Assembly (NCBI RefSeq): GCF_009914755.1
Contig: NC_060928.1
Strand: one strand, 5' to 3'
DNA length: 64,000 bases
From: the human T2T-CHM13v2.0 reference genome, Homo sapiens
The notes under the pieces were generated by a model, which worked only from the letters and a program-made list of their open reading frames with translations, was not told the origin of the DNA and made no database searches. The position numbers were made by a program, and so were the translations under genes. This document shows, one piece after another, positions 910 to 15,249 of the stretch (position 1 is the first letter of the stretch; every line of letters begins with the position of its first letter).

Positions 910-987
910 AAAAGGAAAGGGGGCTGGCCTAAAGGCAAGAAGAGAAACCCCCCGAGGGACCTTGCTGTTCCGTGTTCCTACGACAGG
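910..987 (+). pseudogene. HMG20-like pseudogene exon A: basic motif preceding the HMG box
   Basis: Acceptor ctttttcAG (908-909), donor GTaag (988). Reads KRKGGWPKGKKRNPPRDLAV-[frameshift at ~970]-RVPTTG, matching recalled HMG20B KKRGWPKGKKRKK..PKAPVTG and HMG20A RDSNAPKSPLTG. The exon is 78 nt; 80 are needed for phase 0 to 2, implying a 2-bp deletion. Confidence 0.85.
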
Positions 988-2000
988 GTAAGATGCAGGG
1001 AGATTACTCTGACCCAACGTTGAAGTAATCTGCAGGGCTCACCATGTGGCCTGGGCCACGTGGCGGGGTTGGTACGATCCCATCTCAGCCTTTACCTGTT
1101 CTTTTAGGGTGCTTGGTTAGCTAGGGGGCCTGACACCACTGGGAGTGTGGGGTGGGCTGCTTAGTTCTTTAATCTGTAATGAGGTCCTGGTCCTGGAGGA
1201 GAGAGGACAGAAGAACCAGGTTTGGGTTCCAGACAGGAAAAGGGGTAGGTGTGGGCTTGGTGGGTCTGCTTTCCATCCCAGGCTTGAAGACATGGGCGCT
1301 CTGTGGCCTTGGGTAAGCTGGTTAACCTTCAGGGGGCTCAAGCCACCCTTCTCAGCACCTGGGACCTTGTCCCTTTCCCATGAATCTTGCGCCATAGAAG
1401 AAAGGTCCCATGCCAGCTGCTGACCAGAGCTCTGAGGGTCACCTTGCCCCATCTAGAAGCTTGTACACTTTATCCTCAGGGTTCACACGGCTCTAACGCT
1501 GAGGGGCTTCCTTCAGTATTCCTGTGGCTCACATGGATGAAACTGGTTTGGCCACAGCCTTTCTCCCTCCCCTTCAAAAGAAGTCCTTGAGCAGGAGGGG
1601 GAGGGGCCTGCACCTGGAGTATTAGGCCACACCTGTGAGCAGGTGGCATTATGTTCATTATACAAAGGGGGAAACGGAGGCTCAGATGGGTTACGTGGTT
1701 TGTCCACATAATGCAGCATGGCTATTTGAACGTGTCCCCTGCCAGACACAGCCACCCAGCCTTCATACACCTCGTGCCCTGTGGGGAGCCCCTCTTCTCA
1801 TTCCTAGGCCTTTTACGAGACTCTGGGTTAACAAGCCACTGGAGGATGTGCCCCTCTTAGCCTTCAGTTCTCTGGTTAGACTGAACAAGATGGGCAAACC
1901 TGTGACTCGTTGTGAAAACCGGAAAGTGGAATGAGCTGCCCCTGGCCGGCTCCCTTCCCCACCGGTTCTCAGAGCCAGGTTTGTCCCTTCTGTGGCACAG

Positions 2001-2123
2001 GTACATGATATTCCTGAATGAGCAGAGAAGTCAGCTGAGGGCCACACACCCCGATCTGCCTTTCACAGAAATCATGAAGATGCTGGCTGTTCAGTGGGCC
2101 CAGCTGTCTCAGGATAAAAAGGG
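2001..2123 (+). pseudogene. HMG20-like pseudogene exon B: HMG box helices 1-2
   Basis: Acceptor tgtggcacAG (1999-2000), donor GTaagt (2124). Reads (G)YMIFLNEQRSQLRATHPDLPFTEIMKMLAVQWAQLSQDKK, versus recalled HMG20B [42 protein letters not shown]. It ends 1 nt short of the phase-0 junction with exon C. Confidence 0.92.
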
Positions 2124-3775
2124 GTAAGTCCTGTTCTATGTGGTGAATACAAAGCGAGTCCCCCCGTGAGATGGGGCCTGGGCAGCCCGCAGCCACCGCC
2201 AGGGGCCGTTCCCTCCTAATCCATTTCTTACACCACAGCCAGAGGGAACCCTCTAGAGTGCAGACATGAGATGCCACTCACTCACCCATTTAGAGCAATT
2301 AATGGGTCCCCTTGCTTTTGGCAGCATCTCCTAAACTGGGTCAGGCAGAATGGCCCATCCAGGAATCATGGGCCGGCTGTCAAATAAGTCTAGGAAATTC
2401 TGGAGGAAATCAAGATCGTAGATTTCTCCCTCAGCAGGACATTTTTGGCGAATCTACAATATATTTGTGTAGCACTTGTTATGCCTGGCACCATGCTAGG
2501 TGCTGGGGATACAGCCACAAGCATGGCCAATGGGGCCCCTGCTGTCCTGGAGTGAGGCTGCGGAGGAAGAGACCGAGCCAAGCATGTAAAGGGGCATGAG
2601 AGTCTCTACGTGTGAGCGCTGGTGTGCGGTGTTTCTCAAACTAATTTACCAAGGAGCCTCTTTTTCACAGAGCACCTGTTAACCTCCTACAGAGGCATGT
2701 TCTGGGGGCCAGGGGAGGAATGCCAAATTATGGCATAAGGTCAAAGCCCATTTCGCATGAAATACTGTTACATTCCAATATCACTTCTGCCACCCCCAGC
2801 TGTACCTTCCAGCCACACTGAACAAACGTGTCATTTTCTGTTCAAGCCATGCCTGCCTCAGTGCCACCTCCTACAATAAGCCCTCCCACACCCCTAAGAA
2901 TATCTGACCTCAAAGCCCATACTTTCTCCAGAACAGCACCCTGCCTCCAGAGTGTCATTTCCTTGAGTCAAATACAAAGACCCTGACGTGAACTTCTTTA
3001 AACCTCTACAATTTCATCTTGCTTTAGTCATAGAAAACTCTTGTTTAACAATTGACAAAATCCTAATGGGGGGCTCAGTTAGTAACATCCCTCTCCTTCC
3101 TACCCACGTTTCCAACCAACTAGGAACTATCCAGTAGCCAGTCAGATGGAGATTAAATGTCAGCTGTATTCACGCAAAGCGAGGGGGAGGGTGTCTTTGG
3201 ATCAGTGGCTCCAGCTGCTGGCAGTGCCGGACAATTCCTGGCACTAGGTCAGAGCAGGCCCCTGAGCATGTGGCCAAGAGCAGTGCAGAGCCTTCGCTGC
3301 CTGCCAGCGGATGGCAGGGGCAAAGAGAGAGGGAGGGGCTCTACTCAGCATCCCAAGGCCTGGGGTTGGATCTGATTCGTCTGTCACTAGTGCCCAGCCC
3401 AGGACCCTGTGCAGGGAAAAGTGCTGATGTTTGCATGAAGGATCATTGAAGAGAAGTCTAAGGTTCCCCCTGGCAGGAGCTGATAATGCTGCCCTTCTCT
3501 GCAGTCATCAGACCAAACCTGGAGAATGGTAGTGGCCACAGCAAGGCAGATGCCAGTTGATGGGAAGGAAAACAGTGCCATTCAAACAAGGAATGAACTT
3601 GCTTGGAGGTAGTGAGGTCCCTGTCCCTGGAGGTGTGCAAGCAGAAGCTGAGTAGTAGCTTCTTGGGATCATCCTAAAGAGCCCCAAGGAGGTTGGACAA
3701 GAGGATGCCCAGCCTCCATCCCCATCCCAACCCCAAATCTGGAGCGCCTCAGAATCTCTGTGCTCCTTCCTCCAG

Positions 3776-3896
3776 AGGTATGTGTCTCAGGTGGACGAGG
3801 ACAAGTAGGGCTATGTCTGCGAGCTACAGGCCTTCCAGAGCTCTGAGGCCTACCGAGCTTTCCTGCAGAGGTGTGCAGCCCACAAGGCGCTGTGTG
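3776..3896 (+). pseudogene. HMG20-like pseudogene exon C: HMG box helix 3 with in-frame stop
   Basis: Acceptor ccttcctccAG (3774-3775). Reads RYVSQVDEDK*GYVCELQAFQSSEAYRAFLQRCAAHKALC, versus recalled HMG20B [26 protein letters not shown]. TAG at 3806-3808. The 3' end is inferred: GGatg at 3897 may be a mutated GT donor. Confidence 0.88.
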
Positions 3897-5567
3897 GGAT
3901 GCAGGAGTGGACTGGAGCTCACCTCTCCCAAGCCGGGGTCTGGGATGTTTACGCAGCAGAAAGTACGCTGGGAAAGCCCTTGGTGTTACTCCACCTCCTT
4001 CAGCGCTCACACCAGTCGCCTTGATTGAAGAGCCAAAGCAGTTGGACATCCAGTCTCTTCCTTTTCAGCCCATCCTGGACCGGTTAAAGATTAAAGATAA
4101 GAGGCAGCTTGTTCCCTCCTACCTGGGAGGGTCAGTGGACATTCAGGGAGTGCTGAGGCAGCGGTTACTTTGTAGTGTTTAGAAAAGGGAAAGGAATCAC
4201 AGTGACAGGCCTGGCACTTCTCAAATTCCAGCATGCACACGGTCACCGAGGGTCTTGCTGGTAGGCAGGTTCTGCTCCAGCAGGTTCAGGGTGGGGCCTG
4301 GGAGTCTGCATTTCTGACATGCCCATGGGCCATGGCTGCTGCTGCTCCAGGGCCCACACTGACTATGCTGCAGGTTGGTTCCTGCAGCACTCACCACTCC
4401 TACATGCCGCGGCACCCTCCCACAGCCCAGCATCTCTGCCGTGGGCTTTTCTCAGATGGCCATGGGGCCACATGTGCAGGGCAGAGCTAGCAAACTGAGC
4501 ATCTATGTAAACCCACGCAGACAGCTTTCCACCACCACCGCCATGGTGAGACAAATCCCAGGTGGGTTCCATACCCCAGAGAGTTCCCATGGGACTGAGC
4601 CCCATTCCTGTAATGGCCCTGCCCAGCCAGCTGACTCACTTCCAGCCCTACTGGTGCTTCCTGAGATCAATACCCAAACAAACCATTGACACCAAAATCC
4701 TCATCTGGGGGGCCTGGCTCTGTCCCCAGAGTCTGAGGCAGAGGAGGGAACCCTATCCATTGTCTACTCACTATGCCTTCACCATGGAGGACACTTTCCA
4801 CTCATTTTTCTTTTTCATCCTTTTTGAAAGTATTCTCAATCGCAGAGCCCATCAGCAGCACTTTTACATTGAGACCCACAGGGCGGCCACCGGCCACCAG
4901 GATTCCAGTCTTCTCTGAGGGGCACAGGCCTGCAGGGCAGCATTGAAGTGTCCTTGTCAGTGGGGGTCCAGGCGCCAGTCTCTGGCCCCACCAGTGGCTG
5001 CCCCAGGGCAGAGGTAGGCTTCTCCCAGTGGTCCTGGGTCCACCCCCGTTCACCCTGCATGTTCCTGCCCTGCACGCTCCATGGTCAGGGCTGGCCCGCG
5101 TCCCTAGGACGTCACAGCAAGGCCTGCCTATCTTTCACGTTGCTGCCTCTCCGGCTGAGCACCGGAGGAAGCATGCATCAGGGGCTCTGCCATCCACGAG
5201 ACTCCAGGACCAGCCACGTGTGTCCCATGCTCCCACCGGGACTGGCTGAGAGAGCTGCCTTCCTGGTGACCAGGGTGTGGGCTCCAGAGTCCAAGTGCCC
5301 AGGTTGGAATGGCAGCTCTACCACTCGGTGGCTCTGTGGCCTTGCACAAATTGCTGGAACACTCACTGCCTCAGTTTCTTCATCTGAAAAATGGGGCTGT
5401 CACAGGCCCTTCTCCTCAGGGCTCAGTGAGGATGAATGAGCTAAACCACAGAGAGGTTGGTACTCAGCGCCTGGTACATGGCAAGTGTTCACACTTGCGG
5501 TAAGTGTTCACACTTAGTGCCCCTCCCTGTGCGCTGGGGCATGGCCCCCACCCTAGCTTCCTCCAAA

Positions 5568-5770
5568 GCAGGGGTCAGCAAACTTTTTCTGGAAAGGGAT
5601 AGATAGCAACTGTCATAGGCTTTGTGGGCCACGTGGCCTCCATCGCAGTCATTCAACTCTATGCTTGTAGCAGGAAAGCAGCCATAGACAATATGTTCAC
5701 AAAGGGCCGTGTCTGCATGCCAATAAAACTTTATTTATAAAAACATACAGAAGGCTGAGTTGGTCCACAG
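5568..5770. mobile_element. MER58A-like hAT-Charlie MITE
   Basis: caggggtcagcaaactttttct...ccaataaaactttatttataaaaac, typical MER58 text. A second copy lies at ~62420-62600. Confidence 0.7.
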
Positions 5771-6855
5771 GTAGGTCTACTCTGGCCCATCGTACTTATT
5801 GGGTTTCCACGTAACCTTTGTTTTCAATCAAGTGCCTGTAGATAAAAATAATCAACTGGAAAATCTCTGGTCTGGCATAGAACTAGCAGATATACCCACG
5901 CATGGTGGCGTCTCTGATGGTTCCAGGGGAGCTGCAAGGCCTCTGGTCCTCATCATGAATGTCAGATCTCTTGGTACCAGAGTTAAGCAGAGGGTGCCTG
6001 AGAACAGCTGTCATTCCTGCTCCTGGTTTTCTCCCAAAATGCCATTTGTCCAAGCTTAGCAGAGAACAGCTTGTCTTGCTGAATTCTTCATTCATGCTGA
6101 GGCCCTGCGGCCTTCTCCTTATTTGGGGGATTGTTTGTAAATTGTCGTCATGCAAAAACCTGGTGTGTTACAAGGAAAGGTCACTCCAACACAGCAGCCT
6201 CGTCTTTAAACAAATAAAATATATCACTGCCTTATTTAAAACATAGTAATTTTAAGAGTTTGCTGTATAAAAATAAATTAGTAGTCAATATCCATTTTAA
6301 AAGTATCACCTAGAATCTGCCATGCTAAAAAATGAAGTTTCCATTTTTCCTCGTTTCTCCCTCATCTTCATTCCATACCTAGCCAGGTGCTTATACATTG
6401 ACATCAGAGGTACCTGGTGTTTCCTCTTGGCTCATTGGGGTTTTCAGACCTCAGATTAAATTGAACCGCATTGATCCTCCTCCAGCAGGTAACATGAAGA
6501 CCCCTCGAGATGATGTTTGCAATCAAAGAAGGCACCTCTGACCCTCTGATTGGTGTCCCCCAAATAGGGCTGAGCCCTTTCCTGAGACAAATTCTGAAAA
6601 CGCACCTCTATCTACTGAGGACCTAGCACTTTCTCTCTCACCCGATGACAGAGGTCTTGAGATGAATTGAAATTCTCATCTGTGCTCAGAAAGGTGTCAC
6701 ACCTAGCAAGGAAATTTACAGTGGGGAAAGGGAGTTGCAGGGCCCAGCCCTGTCCACACAAAGCCCGTGTGTCTTTTTCAGCTGATTTTATGTTCAGAGA
6801 AGGCTGGATCACCTGCGCCTCCTCCCTGCTCACCTGAAACCCTTTCTGTCCTCAG

Positions 6856-6962
6856 GGAGATGAACTCAATGACCTCTACTGCGGGACCTCCAGGCAGCTC
6901 TTCAGCTCCCTGTGCAACAAGAAGGAACCTGCTGCAAAGGCAGCACCTGCAGCGCCTCTCAG
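6856..6962 (+). pseudogene. Pseudogene exon D: degenerate U1/matrin-type C2H2 zinc finger
   Basis: Acceptor tttctgtcctcAG (6854-6855), donor GTaac (6963). Reads GDELNDLYCGTSRQLFSSLCNKKE-[c, 2-bp deletion at 6928]-LLQRQHLQRLS(G). Spacing fits C-x2-[C>S]-x12-[H]-x5-H with the conserved aromatic residues. Confidence 0.7.
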
Positions 6963-8292
6963 GTAACCAGCCTGGGCCAGGCGGCTCAGCCGCAAACGCT
7001 GGCCTTGACTCCACCTGCGCCAGAGGTCACCAACAGGCGGCCCACGTGACACCTCTTGTTATTAAAATGCAATTTTAAGACAGACTCTAGTCAAGCCCAC
7101 TTACCACCAGGTGGGTGTTTAGGACAGGGTAGGTCTTCCACTATATCTGTTTTCCTCTTAGTTCGCCAGGCCCGCCTGCTCTGGGCCACGCAGGACACGG
7201 ACGTCAGCTTCTCCTGGAGCGCTCGCTCACTTTATTCCATCTCTACGAGCTCCTCAAGTATCCCAGAGCATCCCCAGGCCTGTGGCCACCTCGGGTCTGG
7301 ATGCCGCATTCTCTGACCTGTGGCACATTCTGGGTGCCCATGATTATGATGAGGTTCTGTGCCCATGTGGCCTCAGGGCTCTTGAGACCACCCTTCAACC
7401 AGGTCTTTGCTCACCTGTCTCCTGCCCAGGGACGCCACCCAGGTCACCGGTGCAAACCTCCAGCCCCTGCCCGTTTCTCTCCATGAGTGCATTGCCACCT
7501 CGCAGCCTCTTCCACTTGCTCATTCCTGGTGTTATTGCCTGTCTCCCACTGGAAGAGAAGGCCCTCGAGTTCAGCAACTGTTTTGCCTGTTTTGTTCACT
7601 GTGGTGAACCCCGGGCCTAGAACCACGCCTGGCACTCCCAGTAGGTGCTCAATAAGTATCCAATGAGTGGACAGATGAATGGATGTGTTCAACAAATGAC
7701 CCTAGAGCGTGTATTCCTTCCAGGGACAGAGCGAGGTACTGGGGACACAGGAAGGACGAGGCAGAGCTCCGCGCTGACGAAACCAAGGGCCAAGCGTGCG
7801 AGTGAATACGAACATCCTGGCGTTAAAACGTCTTGCATTCTAGTGAAATGAGACCCATTGGACACAGAGAAGCCCCACCACAATTGCATCTGTGTAAAAT
7901 CGAGAGAAAGATCGTGAAAACAGCCATGGCAGGTGCTGGACTAAGGGGTGACATTGGGTTTTCTCTTCCCACCTATCCTTTAGGGTTGTTAAAACAGAAA
8001 TAGATCTCACGTAGGCCCCTGCTCTGCACCCTGCTTGCTGAGTCACGCAGGGCCAGTTACGCAGCTACCGTGTGCTTACCCGGCCTCATCTGTAAAATAA
8101 GGATGACACTGCCTGCCTGGCAGGGCTCTCCTGAGAATACACAGTGCCTCGTGCAGGGCCCAGTGCAGCAGAGAGGTCACCTCCTCCAGGAAGACTTTCC
8201 TGACCTGGGCTTGGGGTTGGGCCTCCCCAGGGCTCCTAAGGCTTCCCCACATACCCTTCACTTTGCAATGATCATCCCCTGTTACTGTCCCA

Positions 8293-8516
8293 CAACACAC
8301 ATTACACACAACACCATACAAACACATGCATTCTACACACACACAACATACACATGCACTACATATAACACACATTATACACATTACAAACACAACACAT
8401 ACCCCACACTTCACACTCATATACACACATACACCACCCACATACACTCCAAACACTCCGCACACATACAAACACATACTACATACAACACACTCATACC
8501 ACACACATGCACACAC
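8293..8516. repeat. Degenerate (CA/CATA)n low-complexity tract
   Basis: About 220 bp of acacac/atacac. It generates the His/Thr- and Cys/Val-rich ORFs at 8070-8568. Confidence 0.95.
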
Positions 8517-9959
8517 GGGTCTGGAGGGCGGTGCTGTGTGGGGCTCCGGGCGCATCCCTGATCCATAGCAGATACTGAATATTTGCTGAAGGAATATCCA
8601 GGAGACTCGTGCTACGTCTGGTGTTTGAAAGGAAATGAACAGTTCTTGGTAATGTCTTGTTTAGGGTGAATAATGGCACTGAAGACAGAAAATGCATCTT
8701 ATCACCTGCTCTGGAGCAAAACATGTGTGCTTGGATGCGTAGAGTTATTCTGTGTAAATTACCCACCAGAGAGAATTCAGGCGTGTTTCAAAATCTATAA
8801 AACCGTGTGCTGGGGGACCATGAAAAGTTGTAGATGCACGTGGCCGTGAACCACTGTAACTCTCTGGGGGCCTGCGTGACCGTTTAAAAGGAAACAGACA
8901 TGGGCAAACCTCGTTTCATCTTCTCTCTAAATCACCTACAATTTTACAGTAGCAGTCGGGCTCTTGAGAGCTTTCCCATTTCCACTTTTCTTGGTGGATC
9001 TTGCTGGAAATCAGTGCTTTTGGCAGCTGCAGTCTCTGAGGCGGGGCCCTGATTGGGGATGGGGTGTTAACCTTGCATTCTTTGGGGTTCAGGTCTCAAA
9101 TGGCTCTTGTAGCCCTGGGATCTGAGGAGCGAGACCAGGACTCAGCTATCTCCACCCCGGAAGAACCTTCCCTGCTCTTCCACATCCAGCCCAGGCCTCG
9201 GCTTCCTCGTCTGCAAAACGAGGGTGCTGAGAAGATGGGAGCAGGGGTCCAGCGTTTTCATCAGCAGGGCTGTTGAGATGTAATTCCCATGCCATAGTGC
9301 CCACTGGTTGAAAGTCTATACAGTTCAGTGGTTTCTAGTGTATTTTCAGATATATGCAGCCATCACTGTGGTGGACTTTAGAACATCTCTGTCACCCCAA
9401 AGAGCAACCCCGTTTCCATTGGTGTCACTCCCGGGGCTCCGCATTCCCAGCCCAGCAGCCTAGGACAAGTTTTCTGCCTCTGCAGGAGGCCCCCAAGTTT
9501 CAGATCTTGATGTCTCCTTTCTGTGGGGAGTCCAGCAGGCATCTCCACCTTAGGGACAGCTTAGTGGACAGTGCTGTGTCACCATCAAGGGCCTGAATCC
9601 CCGCTCTGTCACCTACTACCTCTTTTACCTTGGGCAAATTCTTCACCCTTTGCCTTGGTTTCCTTAGGTGAAAATGGGATCATCGTGCTGACCTCAAGGG
9701 CAGCTGTAGGATTCGATGTTCCTCATGTCACGGTCTCTAACCGTGTGGCACATTCTGGGTGCCCATGGTTACGATGATGGGTTTGGGGGCTGGAGGGATC
9801 AGTGACTTTCTGCCTCCACCCCCTCTCTAGGAACGGCAGGCTGCTAAGGAACCCCACAGGCACATGCTGTGTGGCTCCCTGCACGCTGTCCTTCTCCTGC
9901 CGTGGCTTTTCACCTTTGTGTGCCAGTCTTGCTCCTGTTCATGCCTCAAAATCCCACCA

Positions 9960-10645
9960 AAAAGACAATAACAGGTGCTGGCAAGCATGTAGAGAAACTG
10001 AAGCCCTGCTGCTCTGGTGGTGACAGAGGGCACACTGCATTGGAGAATGGTCTGACAGCTCCTCAAAAGGTTAAACATAGAGTTGCCGTGTGACCCAGCC
10101 ATTCCGCTCCGGTGGCCAATCTGAGGTTTCAGTCCAGGCTGTCTGGTTCCAAGGACTCTGTTCTTTACCACTTTCTATGTGTACACCCAAAGAACTGCAA
10201 ATGTATGATCAACCAAAAATATGAACATGAACGCTCATCGCAGCACAGTTCGTAATAGCCAAAAAGTGGAAACAAACCAAACGCCCATCAAGGGTTGAAT
10301 GGATAAACAAAACGTGGCCCATCCTTACAACAGCGTAACCTTGGGCCGTACAGAGGAGTGAAGTATGATATGCACCACGATGCGGAGGAAACTTGAGAAC
10401 ATAGTAAGTGAAAGAAACCAGACACAAAGGACCACACACGGTGTGATTCCATTCACACCAGATGTCCAGAGCAGGAGATCTGTAGAGGCAGAAAGGAGAT
10501 TGCTGGTTGTCTAGGGCTGGGTTTCGGGAGGATAAGGGAGTGATAGCCAAAGGCTGCGAGTTTCTTTATAAAGGATGAAAATGTCCTAAAATTGGGGTGA
10601 TGGTTGCATGTCTGTGAACCTACTAAAAACCACTGAATCACACAC
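9960..10645 (+). mobile_element. Old L1M (L1MB/ME-like) 3' fragment; continues briefly after the Alu
   Basis: gtgctggcaagcatgtagagaaactg, gttcgtaatagccaaaaagtggaaacaa, gaatggataaacaaaacgtgg: L1 ORF2 end and 3'UTR signatures. Confidence 0.75.
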
Positions 10646-10647
10646 TT

Positions 10648-10967
10648 ACTTTATTTTTATTTCTTTATTTATATTTATTTATTTATTTATTGAGTCAAGG
10701 TCTCACTCTGTCGTCCAGGCTGGAGTCCAGTGGTACAATCACAACTCACTGCAGCCTCAACCTCCCAGGTTCAGCTGATCCTCCCACCTCAGCCTCCTGA
10801 GTAGCTGGGACTGCTGGCGTTGGTCACCATGCCTGGCTAATTATTTTGTAGAGATGGGTTTTACGCCACGTTACCCAGCATGGTTTCGAACTCCTGGACT
10901 CAAGGGGTCTGTCCACCTCGGCCACCCAAAGTGCTGAGATTACAGGCGTGAGCCACTGCACCCAACC
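10648..10967 (-). mobile_element. AluJ-like
   Basis: (TTTA)n tail followed by reverse Alu body. Confidence 0.9.
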
Positions 10968-11251
10968 ATGATATGTGAACTAGATCTCAATAAAGGTGTT
11001 AGGCAAAAAACAAAACAAAACAAAAAAACACCATCTCAATCAAGGACCCTTACTCCAGGAGGCCTCCTCTGCTGGCCTCTGCCCCTGCCTGGTCCTGGCG
11101 TGCTCTGCTTGTCTGTCTCTCTGTCCACCAAACAGGGGACCCTGAGGCAGAGGCTGGTTCGCCCACATGTGGACAGAGGGCCAGGCCTGGAAGTGCTGCT
11201 AATTCTCTGCTCGTGGGCTGACCTCTGTGACAGGATTTCTTTGCTTTTTAG

Positions 11252-11452
11252 GGGAATTTAAAAAAGATCCTGCCACGTACTCATAGCACCTGGAGCCTCT
11301 GGAGGAAGAGGAGGGACAAATGAGGTCAAGTCAGAGGAGGAAGCTGAGGGCCCCGAGTCCCTTCTGCTCAGATGTCCGCATCCAGAGAGGAGTTCTGCTT
11401 CTCTCAACCTGTGTTTCTTGCAAGAGTTTATCTATAAATTGCTGAAAAATGG
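11252..11452 (+). pseudogene. Pseudogene exon E: acidic linker leading into the coiled-coil region
   Basis: Acceptor ttctttgcttttAG (11250-11251), phase-compatible with exon D (G+GG gives Gly), donor GTaatc (11453). Reads GEFKKDPATYS*HLEPLEEEEG-[frameshift ~11318]-NEVKSEEEAEGPESLLLRCPHPERSSASLNLCFLQEFIYKLLKN. The end loosely resembles HMG20 FTEEFLNHSKAR. TAG at 11284-11286. Confidence 0.55.
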
Positions 11453-11878
11453 GTAATCAAGTTCAGCAACTCCCTGGCATCTGTGATGACCTATGGTTTG
11501 TAATCCTAGTCAGAATCACCTACATAGAGGATATAATATTAATCAGAACAAAACAGAAAAGTCGCTAGAGGAATAACAATAGTAAAATTTACAATCAGAT
11601 GAAGAATAAAGTTTTCAATGAGGCACAGTTCTAAGCACTTCATACAAATAACCTGTCTTAATTCTCATAAAAGTACTGCAAGGCAGGTGATAATATCATC
11701 TCCTTCTAAAGATAAAATGCAGCACAGAGAGGTTAAGTAACTTGTCCAATGTTGAACAGCTAGTGAGTGGTCAATCTGAGATTTAAATCCAGGCTGTCTG
11801 GGTCCAAGAACTCTGTTCTTCACTACTTCTCAACAACATCAACTATGTAAAATGACACACATACATAAACCCACATCA

Positions 11879-12766
<888 letters not shown>

Positions 12767-13124
12767 TCAGTGCAGTGTTTCTAGTCTTATTTTCTATAAA
12801 TATCTGAATCTACCCGCCTATTTCTCTATCTCTCTACCTAAATATATCTGCATGTTATTTGTATATCTGCATATTTATCTTATATTTATCTAAATAAATA
12901 TATCTAACTATATCTCTATATAGAGATAGAGATAGAAAGATGGAGAGAAAGAGAGATAGAGAGATGGACATGAAGGTAAAATCCGTCCTGCAGCTCCCAT
13001 TTGCAGAAGAGCGTGAGCATTTTCACATCTCCTTCAACGTTCTTTTAGGCATCGCCCCTCCTGGCTGCATAATATTTCATCATATGCGTGAGCCGCACTG
13101 GCTGCCCAGTTCCTCACTGTGTCG

Positions 13125-13378
13125 TTGTTTGTTTGTTTGTTTGTTTTGAAACAGAGTCTCACTCTGTCGCCCAGGCTGGAGTACCGTGGCATGATCTCGG
13201 CTCACTGCAAACTCCGCCTCCTGAGTTCAAGTGATTTCCGGCTAATTTTTGTATTTTTAGTCGGGATGGGGTTTCACCACATTAACCAGGCTGGTGTTGA
13301 ACTTCTGACCTCAAGTGATCCGCCCTCCTCGGCCTCCCAAAGTGCTAGGATTACAGGCGTGAGCCACCGTGCCTGGCC
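13125..13378 (-). mobile_element. AluS-like with internal deletion
   Basis: (GTTT)n tail and reverse Alu body missing part of the right arm. Confidence 0.88.
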
Positions 13379-14509
13379 ATTATGACTGTACGTTTTGGTG
13401 ACACCTGGTTCTTACGTTAGAAATCAGGCTGCTGAACGTTCTGCTCTGTGTGTGTCTTTGTGCCCATTCTTGTTGGCTTCCTTAGAGGGATTTCTGGAAG
13501 TTCAATGATTATGTAAAAAGCACAAGCCTTGCTGGGACCCTGGAGTGGCGTTGGAGTCTCTCGTGGTTAGGAGCCCAGGCCCTGGCCTGGCCATCGGGGG
13601 CTGGAATCCTGGCTGTGTCCTCCGTAGCCATGTGCCCCAGGCAGCTTTCCTCACCGCCTGCCTGTCATCCAGGGATGCAGGTAGGTCCTGCTCCATGGGG
13701 TTGTCATGGCGATCACAGAGACTTGTCCGTGTGGACCACCTAGAGCAGTACCTAGCAGGGCACCTGGCGCCCTGGGGTCACCTTGGATCAGGGTTGCAGC
13801 TGACCCACTCCCATCCCTCCCAAAGGCCCTTCAGCCCAGACTTTTGTGCACCCCAAATTCCATCAAAATCCTTTTTCCTTTGAGAGTAACTTTATTCATT
13901 TCCCTGCAGCTTATTAAAGAATTCTGAAGAACAGTGGGTGTTAAATTTTTTAAAAGAAAGAAAACATTCCAGTAATCCAAAGCCATCACGCAATAGCCCA
14001 CCCGACAGAGGTCCCTGAAAAACAGCCCACAGGGGTCCTTGGGGTTTGCGTCCACGACCCTCTAAGCAAGGTGCCTCACCTGGCGGAGCTCCTGAAGACG
14101 GGAGCTCCTGAAGACAGGCGCCCCCTCCTAGGATGCCAAAGGTCAGAGGCCGCAGTGGGAGAGGCCTGGCTGACAGCTTGTATTCCAGTGGGCTAGAGCC
14201 TCCAGAGCCCTCACCACTGGATTGCCCCTTCTCTTGGCTGGGCGGGACCTGATTTCCACCTGCACAGCCCTGGTGAAGCCACGCAAAAGGAACCTGGGAA
14301 AGGCTCAGGTCCAGAATTGGATGGACACAATTGTGGAACTCAGCCCTCCTCCCCGGCTGGGGGACCTCTGGACAGGTCCCTGAGCCCCTTGGAACTTCGC
14401 TTCCCCAGCCTATAAAATGAGGCAGGCATGCCTCTCTGAGGGTCTGGTGAGCTCTTGAGCTCCTGCAAACGGCCCAGAGTGAAGTAATAGGAGTTTTTGA
14501 GCTGAATTC

Positions 14510-14749
14510 TCAGTCTGTTGCTCAGGCTGGAGCACAGTGGTGCAATCGTAGGTCACTGCAACCTCCACTTCCCAGGTTCAAGTGATTCTTCTGCCTCAGC
14601 CTCCTGAGTAGCTAATTTTTTCTACTTTTAGTAGAGACAGGGCTTCACCATGTTGGCCAGGCTGGTCTCAAACTCCTGGCCTCAAGTGATCTGCCCATCT
14701 CGACCTCCCAAAGTGCTGGGACTACAGGCATGAGCCACTGCACCCGGCC
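14510..14749 (-). mobile_element. Truncated Alu
   Basis: Reverse Alu text without a poly-T tail. Confidence 0.85.
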
Positions 14750-14867
14750 AGAAGTCATAGGATTTTAACGAGTGGAGACAGTGTGGGTGGGGCCATTATT
14801 CCACTTCCTGGAGAGGAAGAGAGATCCTGGCAATGTCTATAGATCTCAGGTGCTCTGCAGGGCATGA

Positions 14868-15035
14868 GTGTATTTATTTACATATTTATTTACTTGCTTA
14901 TTTATTTATTCACCTATTTATTTACTTATGTACTTATTTACATATTTACTTTTGATTTGCTGACATATGTATTTACTTATTCATTTACTTATATATGTAT
15001 TTATGTACTTCATTCCCTTTCTTATTTACTCTTTC
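14868..15035. repeat. Degenerate (TTTA/TTAC)n low-complexity tract
   Basis: tatttatttacatatttatttactt... It generates ORF 14864..15058. Confidence 0.9.
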
Positions 15036-15117
15036 ACTTGTTGCCCGTCTATTCATGACATCTGAGTGTCTCTCTCCCAGTAGAGGCCAGGGCATGCACC
15101 TCTCATGTTCCTTTCAG

Positions 15118-15249
15118 AACCAGCAGTAGAGGCTGGAGGTGGAGCTGGCAGGGCTGAAGACCTATGGGGGGGACCTGGAGGAGTTTGAGACCCTCAGCAT
15201 GGTGCTGATGCTGTCCCACTTCAGCCCGCAAGTGATGCACACCGGGTGA
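15118..15249 (+). pseudogene. Pseudogene exon F: HMG20-like C-terminal coiled-coil remnant, probably the last coding exon
   Basis: Acceptor gttcctttcAG (15116-15117). Reads NQQ*RLEVELAGLKTYGGDLEEFETLSMVLMLSHFSPQVMHTG*, resembling recalled HMG20A EKLEVDVIQERSRNTVLQQHLETLRQVLTSSF. Internal TAG 15127-15129, TGA 15247-15249. Confidence 0.55.

What the first reader, a model, noticed from the sequence alone, without database searches (positions are those of the whole stretch)
6856..6962. Extra U1/matrin-type zinc finger gives a domain layout not seen in HMG20A/B
Seen: LYCGTSRQLFSSLCNKKE[c]LLQRQH. Restoring TCC to TGC (6889) and a 2-bp deletion (c to CAC at 6928) gives exact C-x2-C-x12-H-x5-H spacing with Y before the first Cys and a central F. 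Established: this spacing is typical of U1/matrin/JAZ-type fingers, which often bind RNA, and HMG20A/B have no such finger. Inference: the ancestral protein combined a DNA-binding HMG box, a possible RNA-binding finger and a dimerisation coiled coil.
Basis: partly seen in the sequence, partly recalled or inferred. Interest (0 to 1): 0.7.

Follow-up and report, generated by a model that had tools for sequence, protein, structure and literature searches.

The report
Fossil finger of lost HMG20 gene
This stretch of a human non-coding RNA gene is a broken exon of a lost chromatin-protein gene, a sister of HMG20A/B that is intact in pigs, whales, sharks and corals, where the exon codes for a highly conserved zinc finger predicted to bind double-stranded RNA and likely present in the ancestor of all HMG20 proteins.

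Summary
Confirmed and extended. Window 6856-6962 is one exon of a decayed gene inside JAKMIP1-DT. They occur in mammals, turtles, sharks, sturgeon, eels, a hemichordate and corals. The finger is more conserved than the HMG box: seal versus coral 23/29 against 36/68. The human copy has two more hits than were noticed, an invariant His to Cys and a Gly to Gln. No intact copy was found in the genome, and chimpanzee and bonobo share the break.

The family is a sister of HMG20A/B, not a member (100/100). New point: sea-anemone HMG20A also has this finger, so it is likely ancestral and lost in vertebrate HMG20A/B.

Closest solved fingers are ZMAT5, ZFa and U1-C. RNA binding is inferred only (about 0.45). 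GENCODE curators already flagged the HMG exon as a pseudogene. I found no paper on the family or its finger.

The parts
910..987 (+). Exon with the basic KRKGGWPKGKK motif and the start of the HMG box; frameshift near 970
   Evidence: tblastn 77-82% identity, E 1e-7 to 3e-7; the two frames seen
2001..2123 (+). Exon with the first part of the HMG box, frame open; its donor lies one base short of the phase inferred from relatives
   Evidence: Pfam HMG_box E 8e-11; best PDB hit 2crj, HMG20B; donor compared; this is the region listed as an HMG pseudogene in PMC6886504 Data S1
3776..3898 (+). Exon remnant with the second part of the HMG box; TAG at 3806; no GT at the expected donor; not in the RefSeq transcript
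   Evidence: tblastn E 5e-14 to 6e-9
6728..6823 (+). Intron just before the finger exon, still alignable to an intron read-through in a gray whale gene model
   Evidence: 59% over 32 codons, E 1.7e-8
6856..6962 (+). The finding: decayed exon for a single C-x2-C-x12-H-x5-H zinc finger; both splice sites present
6889..6891 (+). Ser codon where relatives have the second Cys
   Evidence: Cys in 39 of 39 aligned relatives
6913..6915 (+).
   Evidence: His in 39 of 39 and 54 of 54 distant representatives
6927..6929 (+). Frameshift (2 nt short) at the first ligand His
   Evidence: frame change in tblastn; codon table
6935..6937 (+).
   Evidence: Gly in 39 of 39, 53 of 54
11252..11452 (+). Exon remnant: acidic linker and entry to the coiled coil; TAG at 11284 and a frameshift near 11320-11330
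   Evidence: tblastn E down to 1.5e-13
15118..15243 (+). Exon remnant: second half of the coiled coil and C-terminus; TAG at 15127 and a one-codon gap
   Evidence: tblastn E 1e-11 to 2e-6

Best explanation
Window 6856-6962 is a broken exon of a dead human gene whose intact relatives in other animals encode an HMG20-like protein with a single, highly conserved U1/matrin-like zinc finger that likely binds double-stranded RNA. Shown: the gene's exons lie in order from 910 to 15243 with stops, frameshifts and undetected exons; it has no intact copy among the genome search hits; its relatives form a subfamily apart from HMG20A/B, from corals to mammals. Inferred mechanism of the living protein: the basic motif and HMG box grip bent or four-way DNA with little sequence preference, as HMG20A does; the coiled coil would dimerise or recruit partners; the finger between them would hold an RNA duplex, as U1-C and ZMAT5 do, and so would tether chromatin complexes to RNA (about 0.45 for RNA as the ligand, 0.35 protein, 0.15 DNA). 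Inferred history: the finger was present before the two subfamilies split, which was before corals and bilaterians parted; vertebrate HMG20A/B lost it; the finger-keeping gene died on the primate line after the split from colugos and before the human-chimpanzee split. In humans the exon now survives as part of a lncRNA and cannot make a finger.
For: Exon-by-exon tblastn of 7 mammalian proteins. 81 of 84 hits have the exact spacing; 44 of 47 representatives picked by HMG box plus family coiled coil have it. Conservation: finger 15 of 29 columns invariant, HMG box 19 of 68 (39 sequences); seal versus Montipora 23/29, 36/68, coiled coil 21/68. The human read-through falls among mammals (100) next to colugo (86, unstarred). 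With the finger removed, 30 family rows are one side of a branch at 100/100. Genome search: the top places are HMG20A-like chr15, HMG20B-like chr19 and this locus; others are 41% or less identical HMG boxes (identities of the two loci). Sea-anemone HMG20A has the finger at the same place, 58-59 bits with the family profile. The finger profile's best PDB hits are ZMAT5 (E 3.7e-4), ZFa (1.8e-3) and yeast U1-C (0.14); Lys/Arg three residues before the first His and the Gly between the His pair are shared with ZMAT5 and U1-C. AlphaFold gives two short strands then a helix. U1-C holds an RNA duplex backbone and the ZMAT5 finger sits beside the U11 5' splice-site region (bioRxiv 2023.12.22.573053, passages). 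HMG20A prefers four-way DNA and dimerises through its coiled coil (PMC9508832, passages).
Against: No binding data exist here. Pfam scores that I saw are under the cut-offs: at most 17.7 bits in 7 full-length proteins, 20.6 against 21.2 for the one finger shown. Only one PDB hit is below E 0.001, and fold searches did not separate matrin-type from ordinary C2H2 fingers. An invariant Glu on the helix and an acidic run before the finger (net -4 to -8) fit a phosphate-backbone binder poorly. The trees are unrooted, and the finger-bearing HMG20A/B-type proteins are not one group and are weakly placed. Gene order (JAKMIP1-WFS1) in other species could not be read. Many invertebrate rows are unnamed, and several species names were cut off.
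Confidence: 0.8

Rival explanations
1. Same fossil gene, but the finger is a protein-docking module: its invariant His-Asn-Lys-x-Glu face binds one conserved protein partner.
For: H, N, K and E outside the zinc ligands are kept in 54, 54, 53 and 53 of 54 distant representatives, more than backbone binding seems to need; the ZMAT5 finger also contacts SmD3; HMG20A works through protein partners.
Against: The nearest solved fingers are all in RNA-bound proteins; the finger itself is net basic, +2 to +4, with Lys or Arg after the Gly in 51 of 54.
Confidence: 0.35
2. The finger reads DNA beside the HMG box like a classical C2H2 finger.
For: The conserved Ser, His, Asn and Glu fall at helix positions -1, 2, 3 and 6, the base-reading positions of classical fingers (numbering from my own knowledge; columns); weak Foldseek rows are mostly classical fingers.
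Against: It is a single finger; position 4 is Lys instead of the buried Leu; it has H-x5-H with Gly; no Foldseek row is below E 1.7; zf-C2H2 is hit by only 3 of 13 members at E 0.15 or worse.
Confidence: 0.15
3. The finger arose in the orphan subfamily alone and was passed to some HMG20A/B-type genes later, so it is a true extra and vertebrate HMG20A/B never had it.
For: 21 of 24 HMG20A/B-type representatives lack it; the five finger-bearing ones tested do not form one group.
Against: It sits at the same place between HMG box and coiled coil in both subfamilies; it is diverged, not a recent copy (44-59 bits against 94-102 for family members); anthozoans hold finger-bearing genes of both kinds.
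Confidence: 0.12
4. The human exon still makes a working peptide or finger, for example through the 113-residue frame of the lncRNA.
For: The exon is spliced in NR_037863.1 with both sites present; predicted proteins exist for human, bonobo and chimpanzee (P0002-P0004).
Against: Those models read the exon in another frame up to 6928 and hold one of four ligands; in the old frame Cys2, the first ligand His, the invariant His and the Gly are all changed; the human branch is 0.28 long against 0.065 for colugo.
Confidence: 0.03
5. The motif is a chance pattern made by allowing two edits.
For: Unrepaired halves hit no Pfam family.
Against: 39.7 bits against at most 21.6 in 30 shuffles; collinear with five other exons and bounded by splice sites.
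Confidence: 0.005

Closest known systems
HMG20A (iBRAF) and HMG20B (BRAF35)
   Same: Basic GWPKGKKRK-type motif, HMG box (best PDB hit 2crj) and a homologous coiled coil (hhalign probability 100, 237 columns).
   Different: Separate side of the tree (100/100); the orphan family has the finger and lacks the last helical stretch of HMG20A/B (tail score at most 0.3 bits in 47 members); vertebrate HMG20A/B have no finger.
Sea-anemone HMG20A (Nematostella P0243, Exaiptasia P0244)
   Same: HMG box + the same finger + coiled coil in the same order.
   Different: They are HMG20A/B-type by coiled coil and tail and by tree, not orthologues of the window gene.
ZMAT5 (U11-20K) and U1-C zinc fingers
   Same: C2H2 ligands, aromatic before Cys1, Lys/Arg three before the first His, H-x2-G-x2-H; ZMAT5 also shares L-H-N.
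   Different: One or two more residues between Cys2 and His; they are snRNP subunits without an HMG box; E only 3.7e-4 and 0.14.
ZFa/JAZ (ZNF346) double-stranded RNA fingers, Pfam zf-C2H2_jaz and zf-met
   Same: Same x12 and x5 spacing and H-x2-G-K-x-H; 13 of 13 fingers hit zf-met and 11 of 13 zf-C2H2_jaz at E 1 or better.
   Different: ZFa has repeated fingers, this protein one; scores seen are under the cut-offs.
GENCODE ENSG00000249896, 'High-mobility group family pseudogene' (PMC6886504, Data S1 row 419)
   Same: Same locus: the listed peptide is the window's 2002-2121 frame.
   Different: One HMG exon only; its id and coordinates did not occur in that paper's unitary pseudogene table; no finger, family or age given in the rows I saw.

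Membership tests
U1/matrin-type C2H2 zinc finger (intact relatives) | C-x2-C-x12-H-x5-H ligand spacing | tested here: met
   81 of 84; 44 of 47
U1/matrin-type C2H2 zinc finger (intact relatives) | Aromatic before Cys1, central Phe, Gly between the two His, basic residue three before the first His (features read from the U1-C, ZMAT5 and ZFa alignments) | tested here: met
   Tyr/His/Phe 53 of 54, Phe 54, Gly 53, Lys 53
U1/matrin-type C2H2 zinc finger (intact relatives) | Pfam zf-met, zf-C2H2_jaz or zf-U1 score above the curated cut-off | tested here: inconclusive
   Under the cut-off in 7 of 7 full-length proteins and in the one finger whose scores were shown (20.6 against 21.2); best E among 13 fingers 1.1e-4, bits not shown. 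SMART ZnF_U1 is not available.
U1/matrin-type C2H2 zinc finger (intact relatives) | Two-strand plus helix fold like solved matrin-type fingers | tested here: inconclusive
   AlphaFold gives the pattern (pLDDT 87-89 over residues 11-30); fold searches gave no significant match
U1/matrin-type C2H2 zinc finger (intact relatives) | Binds zinc; binds RNA | not testable with these tools
   needs bench work
U1/matrin-type C2H2 zinc finger (human copy) | Four zinc ligands in one frame | tested here: not met
   Cys2 is Ser, first His lost at a frameshift
HMG20 family in the wide sense | Basic motif + HMG20-type HMG box + homologous coiled coil | tested here: met
HMG20A/HMG20B subfamily | Falls inside the HMG20A/B group in a tree | tested here: not met
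   30 family rows on their own side, 100/100, finger removed
HMG20A/HMG20B subfamily | C-terminal helical stretch after the coiled coil | tested here: not met
   at most 0.3 bits in 47 members; 15 or more in 19 of 24 HMG20A/B-type rows (the family set was filtered to under 15)
HMG20A/HMG20B subfamily | Joins LSD1-CoREST, PHF14 or NuRD complexes | not testable with these tools
   needs pull-downs
Unitary pseudogene | Disabling changes in the reading frame | tested here: met
   3 stops and at least 3 internal frameshifts in the window; 3 exons not detected
Unitary pseudogene | No intact copy elsewhere in the genome | tested here: met
   38 matches among 122 scored candidates, none a second copy; finger search 1 match; the search scores best candidates only
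Unitary pseudogene | Intact orthologues and kept exon structure | tested here: met
   flanking intron alignable to whale
Unitary pseudogene | Same neighbouring genes in species with the intact gene | not testable with these tools
   no genomic context is given for the animal proteins

The most novel reading that the evidence does not exclude
Animals have an undescribed third HMG20 subfamily, older than the coral-bilaterian split, that keeps the original design of the family: a DNA-bending HMG box joined to an RNA-duplex-binding finger and a coiled coil, so bridging RNA to chromatin complexes. Vertebrate HMG20A/B are stripped versions that lost the finger, and with the death of this gene apes lost the last finger-bearing HMG20, a function that pigs, cattle, whales, bats and sharks still have.
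Probability: 0.35. Interest if true: 0.75.

Novelty: new variant of a known kind. Interest (0 to 1): 0.56.

Why it matters
HMG20A/B are studied as partners of LSD1-CoREST and PHF14, almost only in human and mouse cells. A sister protein that kept a finger more conserved than its own HMG box from corals to mammals points to a fixed partner and to a function missing in humans. It gives a ready test (one 29-residue module, livestock cell lines, Nematostella) and adds an old gene to the list of primate gene losses. It also redefines JAKMIP1-DT, next to WFS1, as the remains of a protein gene.

Tried and rejected
Pfam on the unrepaired human halves: nothing. Foldseek of the whole model returned HMG boxes only among the rows shown. 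Fold searches with the 50-residue finger model were uninformative: VIA-align was led by the long helix, best Z 5.7 to an unrelated phage protein; Foldseek had no row under E 0.001. A complex prediction of an HMG20B-type coiled coil with the family's coiled coil gave no answer (score 0.05, mark 0.34, alignments not used, chains from different species); it is not used as evidence. Three expected exons were sought and not found: the first half of the coiled coil between 11451 and 15115, the linker between 3881 and 6860, and the second N-terminal exon; short exons can be missed. No finger remnant in the human HMG20A and HMG20B stretches. Literature: 0 papers for JAKMIP1-DT and 0 for HMG20A + zinc finger + Nematostella; LOC285484 (4 papers), RP11-586D19 (2) and ENSG00000249896 (1) gave listings whose titles do not concern this gene's protein (LOC285484 and RP11-586D19 are recalled aliases, not checked). 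Gene-loss papers PMC10195156 and PMC5577775 (term searches of main text and held supplements), PMC7555810 and PMC2864566 (main-text term searches only) gave no mention. Rejected: chance motif, processed pseudogene (introns kept), copy of HMG20A/B (tree), live human finger.

Full report
Observation. Window 6856-6962 is a 107-nt stretch between AG and GT. It reads G-D-E-L-N-D-L-Y-C in one frame to 6927 and continues L-L-Q-R-Q-H-L-Q in the next frame from 6929. Two more changes hit residues found in all 39 aligned relatives: His to Cys at 6913 and Gly to Gln at 6935. The match is not chance: 39.7 bits against at most 21.6 in 30 shuffled windows.

The gene. The open HMG exon at 2002-2121 matches Pfam HMG_box at E 8e-11 and HMG20B (2crj) best among solved structures. 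A search with it gave 35 proteins of 35 candidates, named ones from mammals. Seven of these, run against the window, map in order to 907-972, 2002-2121, 3773-3898, 6856-6964, 11251-11447 and 15112-15243. The human copy has stops at 3806, 11284 and 15127, frameshifts near 970, 6928 and 11325, an HMG exon donor one base short of the inferred phase, and no GT at the expected donor near 3897. Three expected exons were not detected. A whole-genome search gave 38 matches among 122 scored candidates: this locus, the HMG20A and HMG20B loci, and distant HMG boxes. A finger-containing query matched only here. This is a unitary pseudogene in all respects that I could test. Gene order in other species could not be read, but the intron before the finger exon still aligns to a whale read-through (E 1.7e-8).

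The family. A search with the finger-to-end part of a fur seal protein gave 84 hits among 1072 candidates. Names include carnivores, ruminants, pig, whales, bats, sloth, anteater, colugo, naked mole-rat, gopher, turtles, rays, chimaera, sturgeon, eels, tarpon, Saccoglossus and two corals. 81 of the 84 have the exact spacing; the three without are two models lacking the exon and a pangolin model with Cys1 lost. A full HMMER search with the 39-sequence alignment listed 150 representatives. 47 of them have an HMG box and the family coiled coil, and 44 of the 47 have the finger. Many are unnamed; one unnamed member's nearest Atlas cluster is mostly arthropod (score 0.97), a lead that the family reaches protostomes. 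No mouse, rat, bird, frog or zebrafish name was visible, but names were often cut off and clusters hide members, so this shows no absence.

Conservation. In the 39-sequence alignment 15 of 29 finger columns are invariant, against 19 of 68 in the HMG box and 2 of 68 in the coiled coil. Seal versus Montipora: 23/29, 36/68, 21/68. Among 54 distant representatives with the finger (chosen by finger score and spacing, so the four ligands are fixed by construction), Phe, the extra His and Asn are in 54, and Lys, Glu and Gly in 53.

Relation to HMG20A/B. The profiles align through HMG box and coiled coil (probability 100), but the family lacks the last helical stretch of HMG20A/B. In a tree of 48 of the 245 stored proteins with the finger cut out, the 30 family rows are one side of a branch at 100/100. 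In a tree of 65 stored proteins plus the human read-through, the human row is among mammals (100), next to colugo (86), with a long branch. Both trees are unrooted; partial and redundant rows were left out by my choice. Of 24 HMG20A/B-type representatives, 3 carry the same finger at the same place, and a search with one of them found HMG20A of Nematostella and Exaiptasia with the finger (8 hits of 81 candidates). Anthozoans thus hold finger-bearing genes of both kinds. The simplest reading is a finger in the common ancestor and loss in the line to vertebrate HMG20A/B, whose human loci show no remnant. This is inference: the five finger-bearing HMG20A/B-type rows are not one group and are weakly placed.

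Timing. Bonobo and chimpanzee models read the exon in the same shifted frame as the human one, 35 of 35 and 34 of 35 residues alike, so the break, the Ser and the His loss predate that split. P0025, whose species name was cut off, shares the shifted reading and several human-like residues, but its letters imply an intact Cys2, and it keeps the coiled-coil exon. The frameshift is therefore likely older than the Cys2 change. Colugo is intact (P0037).

What the finger does. Pfam zf-met hit 5 of 7 and zf-C2H2_jaz 6 of 7 full-length proteins, all under the cut-offs; 13 of 13 isolated fingers hit zf-met and 7 of 13 zf-U1 at E 1 or better. A finger profile against solved structures ranked ZMAT5 (E 3.7e-4), ZFa (1.8e-3), U1-C (0.14), ZNF622 and Prp11. 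AlphaFold builds two short strands and a helix, with HMG box, finger and coiled coil as separate parts (pTM 0.30); fold searches added nothing. U1-C holds the backbone of an RNA duplex, and the ZMAT5 finger lies next to the U11 5' splice-site region and contacts SmD3 (bioRxiv 10.1101/2023.12.22.573053, passages). HMG20A prefers four-way DNA, has little sequence preference and forms dimers through its coiled coil (PMC9508832, passages). I commit to duplex RNA as the likeliest ligand (0.45), with a protein partner close behind (0.35), because an invariant Glu and an acidic run before the finger fit backbone binding poorly. None of this is shown.

What is known. [quoted passage not shown] One supplement file could not be searched and another was cut when stored, so they may hold more. 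Databases carry the relatives under automatic names such as HMG20A-like or uncharacterized, and one Atlas cluster, mostly cnidarian, has zf-C2H2_jaz on 25% of members. Ten paper searches and term searches in four gene-loss papers found no description of the subfamily or its finger; most subscription papers are not in the library. PMC2864566 used mouse genes as its reference (passages), which would miss a gene also lost in mouse; whether mouse lost it I could not test.

Verdict. The pseudogene was noted before; the old finger-bearing subfamily, and the finger in anemone HMG20A, appear undescribed in what I could search. New variant of a known kind; interest 0.56.

Noticed in passing
L012:6019-6075 (G000:C4 about 6,196,118; 3.9 kb before the window): A GC-rich stretch reads M-Q-R-N-C-G, like the start of the mammalian proteins, and then shifts frame into a stretch like the sloth model's read-through; likely the old first coding exon, about 21 kb downstream of the annotated lncRNA start. 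Short match, not tested statistically.
   Followed up: partly
window 11453-15117: The exon for the first half of the coiled coil was not found; the interval holds several masked repeats. P0025 still has this exon, so it may have been deleted later.
   Followed up: partly
window 2001-2123 joined to 6856-6964: The RefSeq splice skips the second HMG exon and gives a 113-residue predicted protein (hCG1761132, P0002) that reads the finger exon out of frame until 6928.
   Followed up: partly
proteins P0108 and P0066: An unnamed mammal-like representative has a decayed finger on a long branch, and a pangolin model named 'Zinc finger protein 346' has lost Cys1 and the HMG box: possible separate losses in other mammals.
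   Followed up: no
proteins P0087, P0090, P0091, P0093, P0104-P0107: Invertebrate members end in a conserved M-V-P-T-L-F-G-V-I-N-F tail in place of the HMG20A/B helical end; a possible partner-binding motif.
   Followed up: no
proteins P0029, P0031, P0027: Whale and dolphin models carry a 22-residue insert just before the finger.
   Followed up: no
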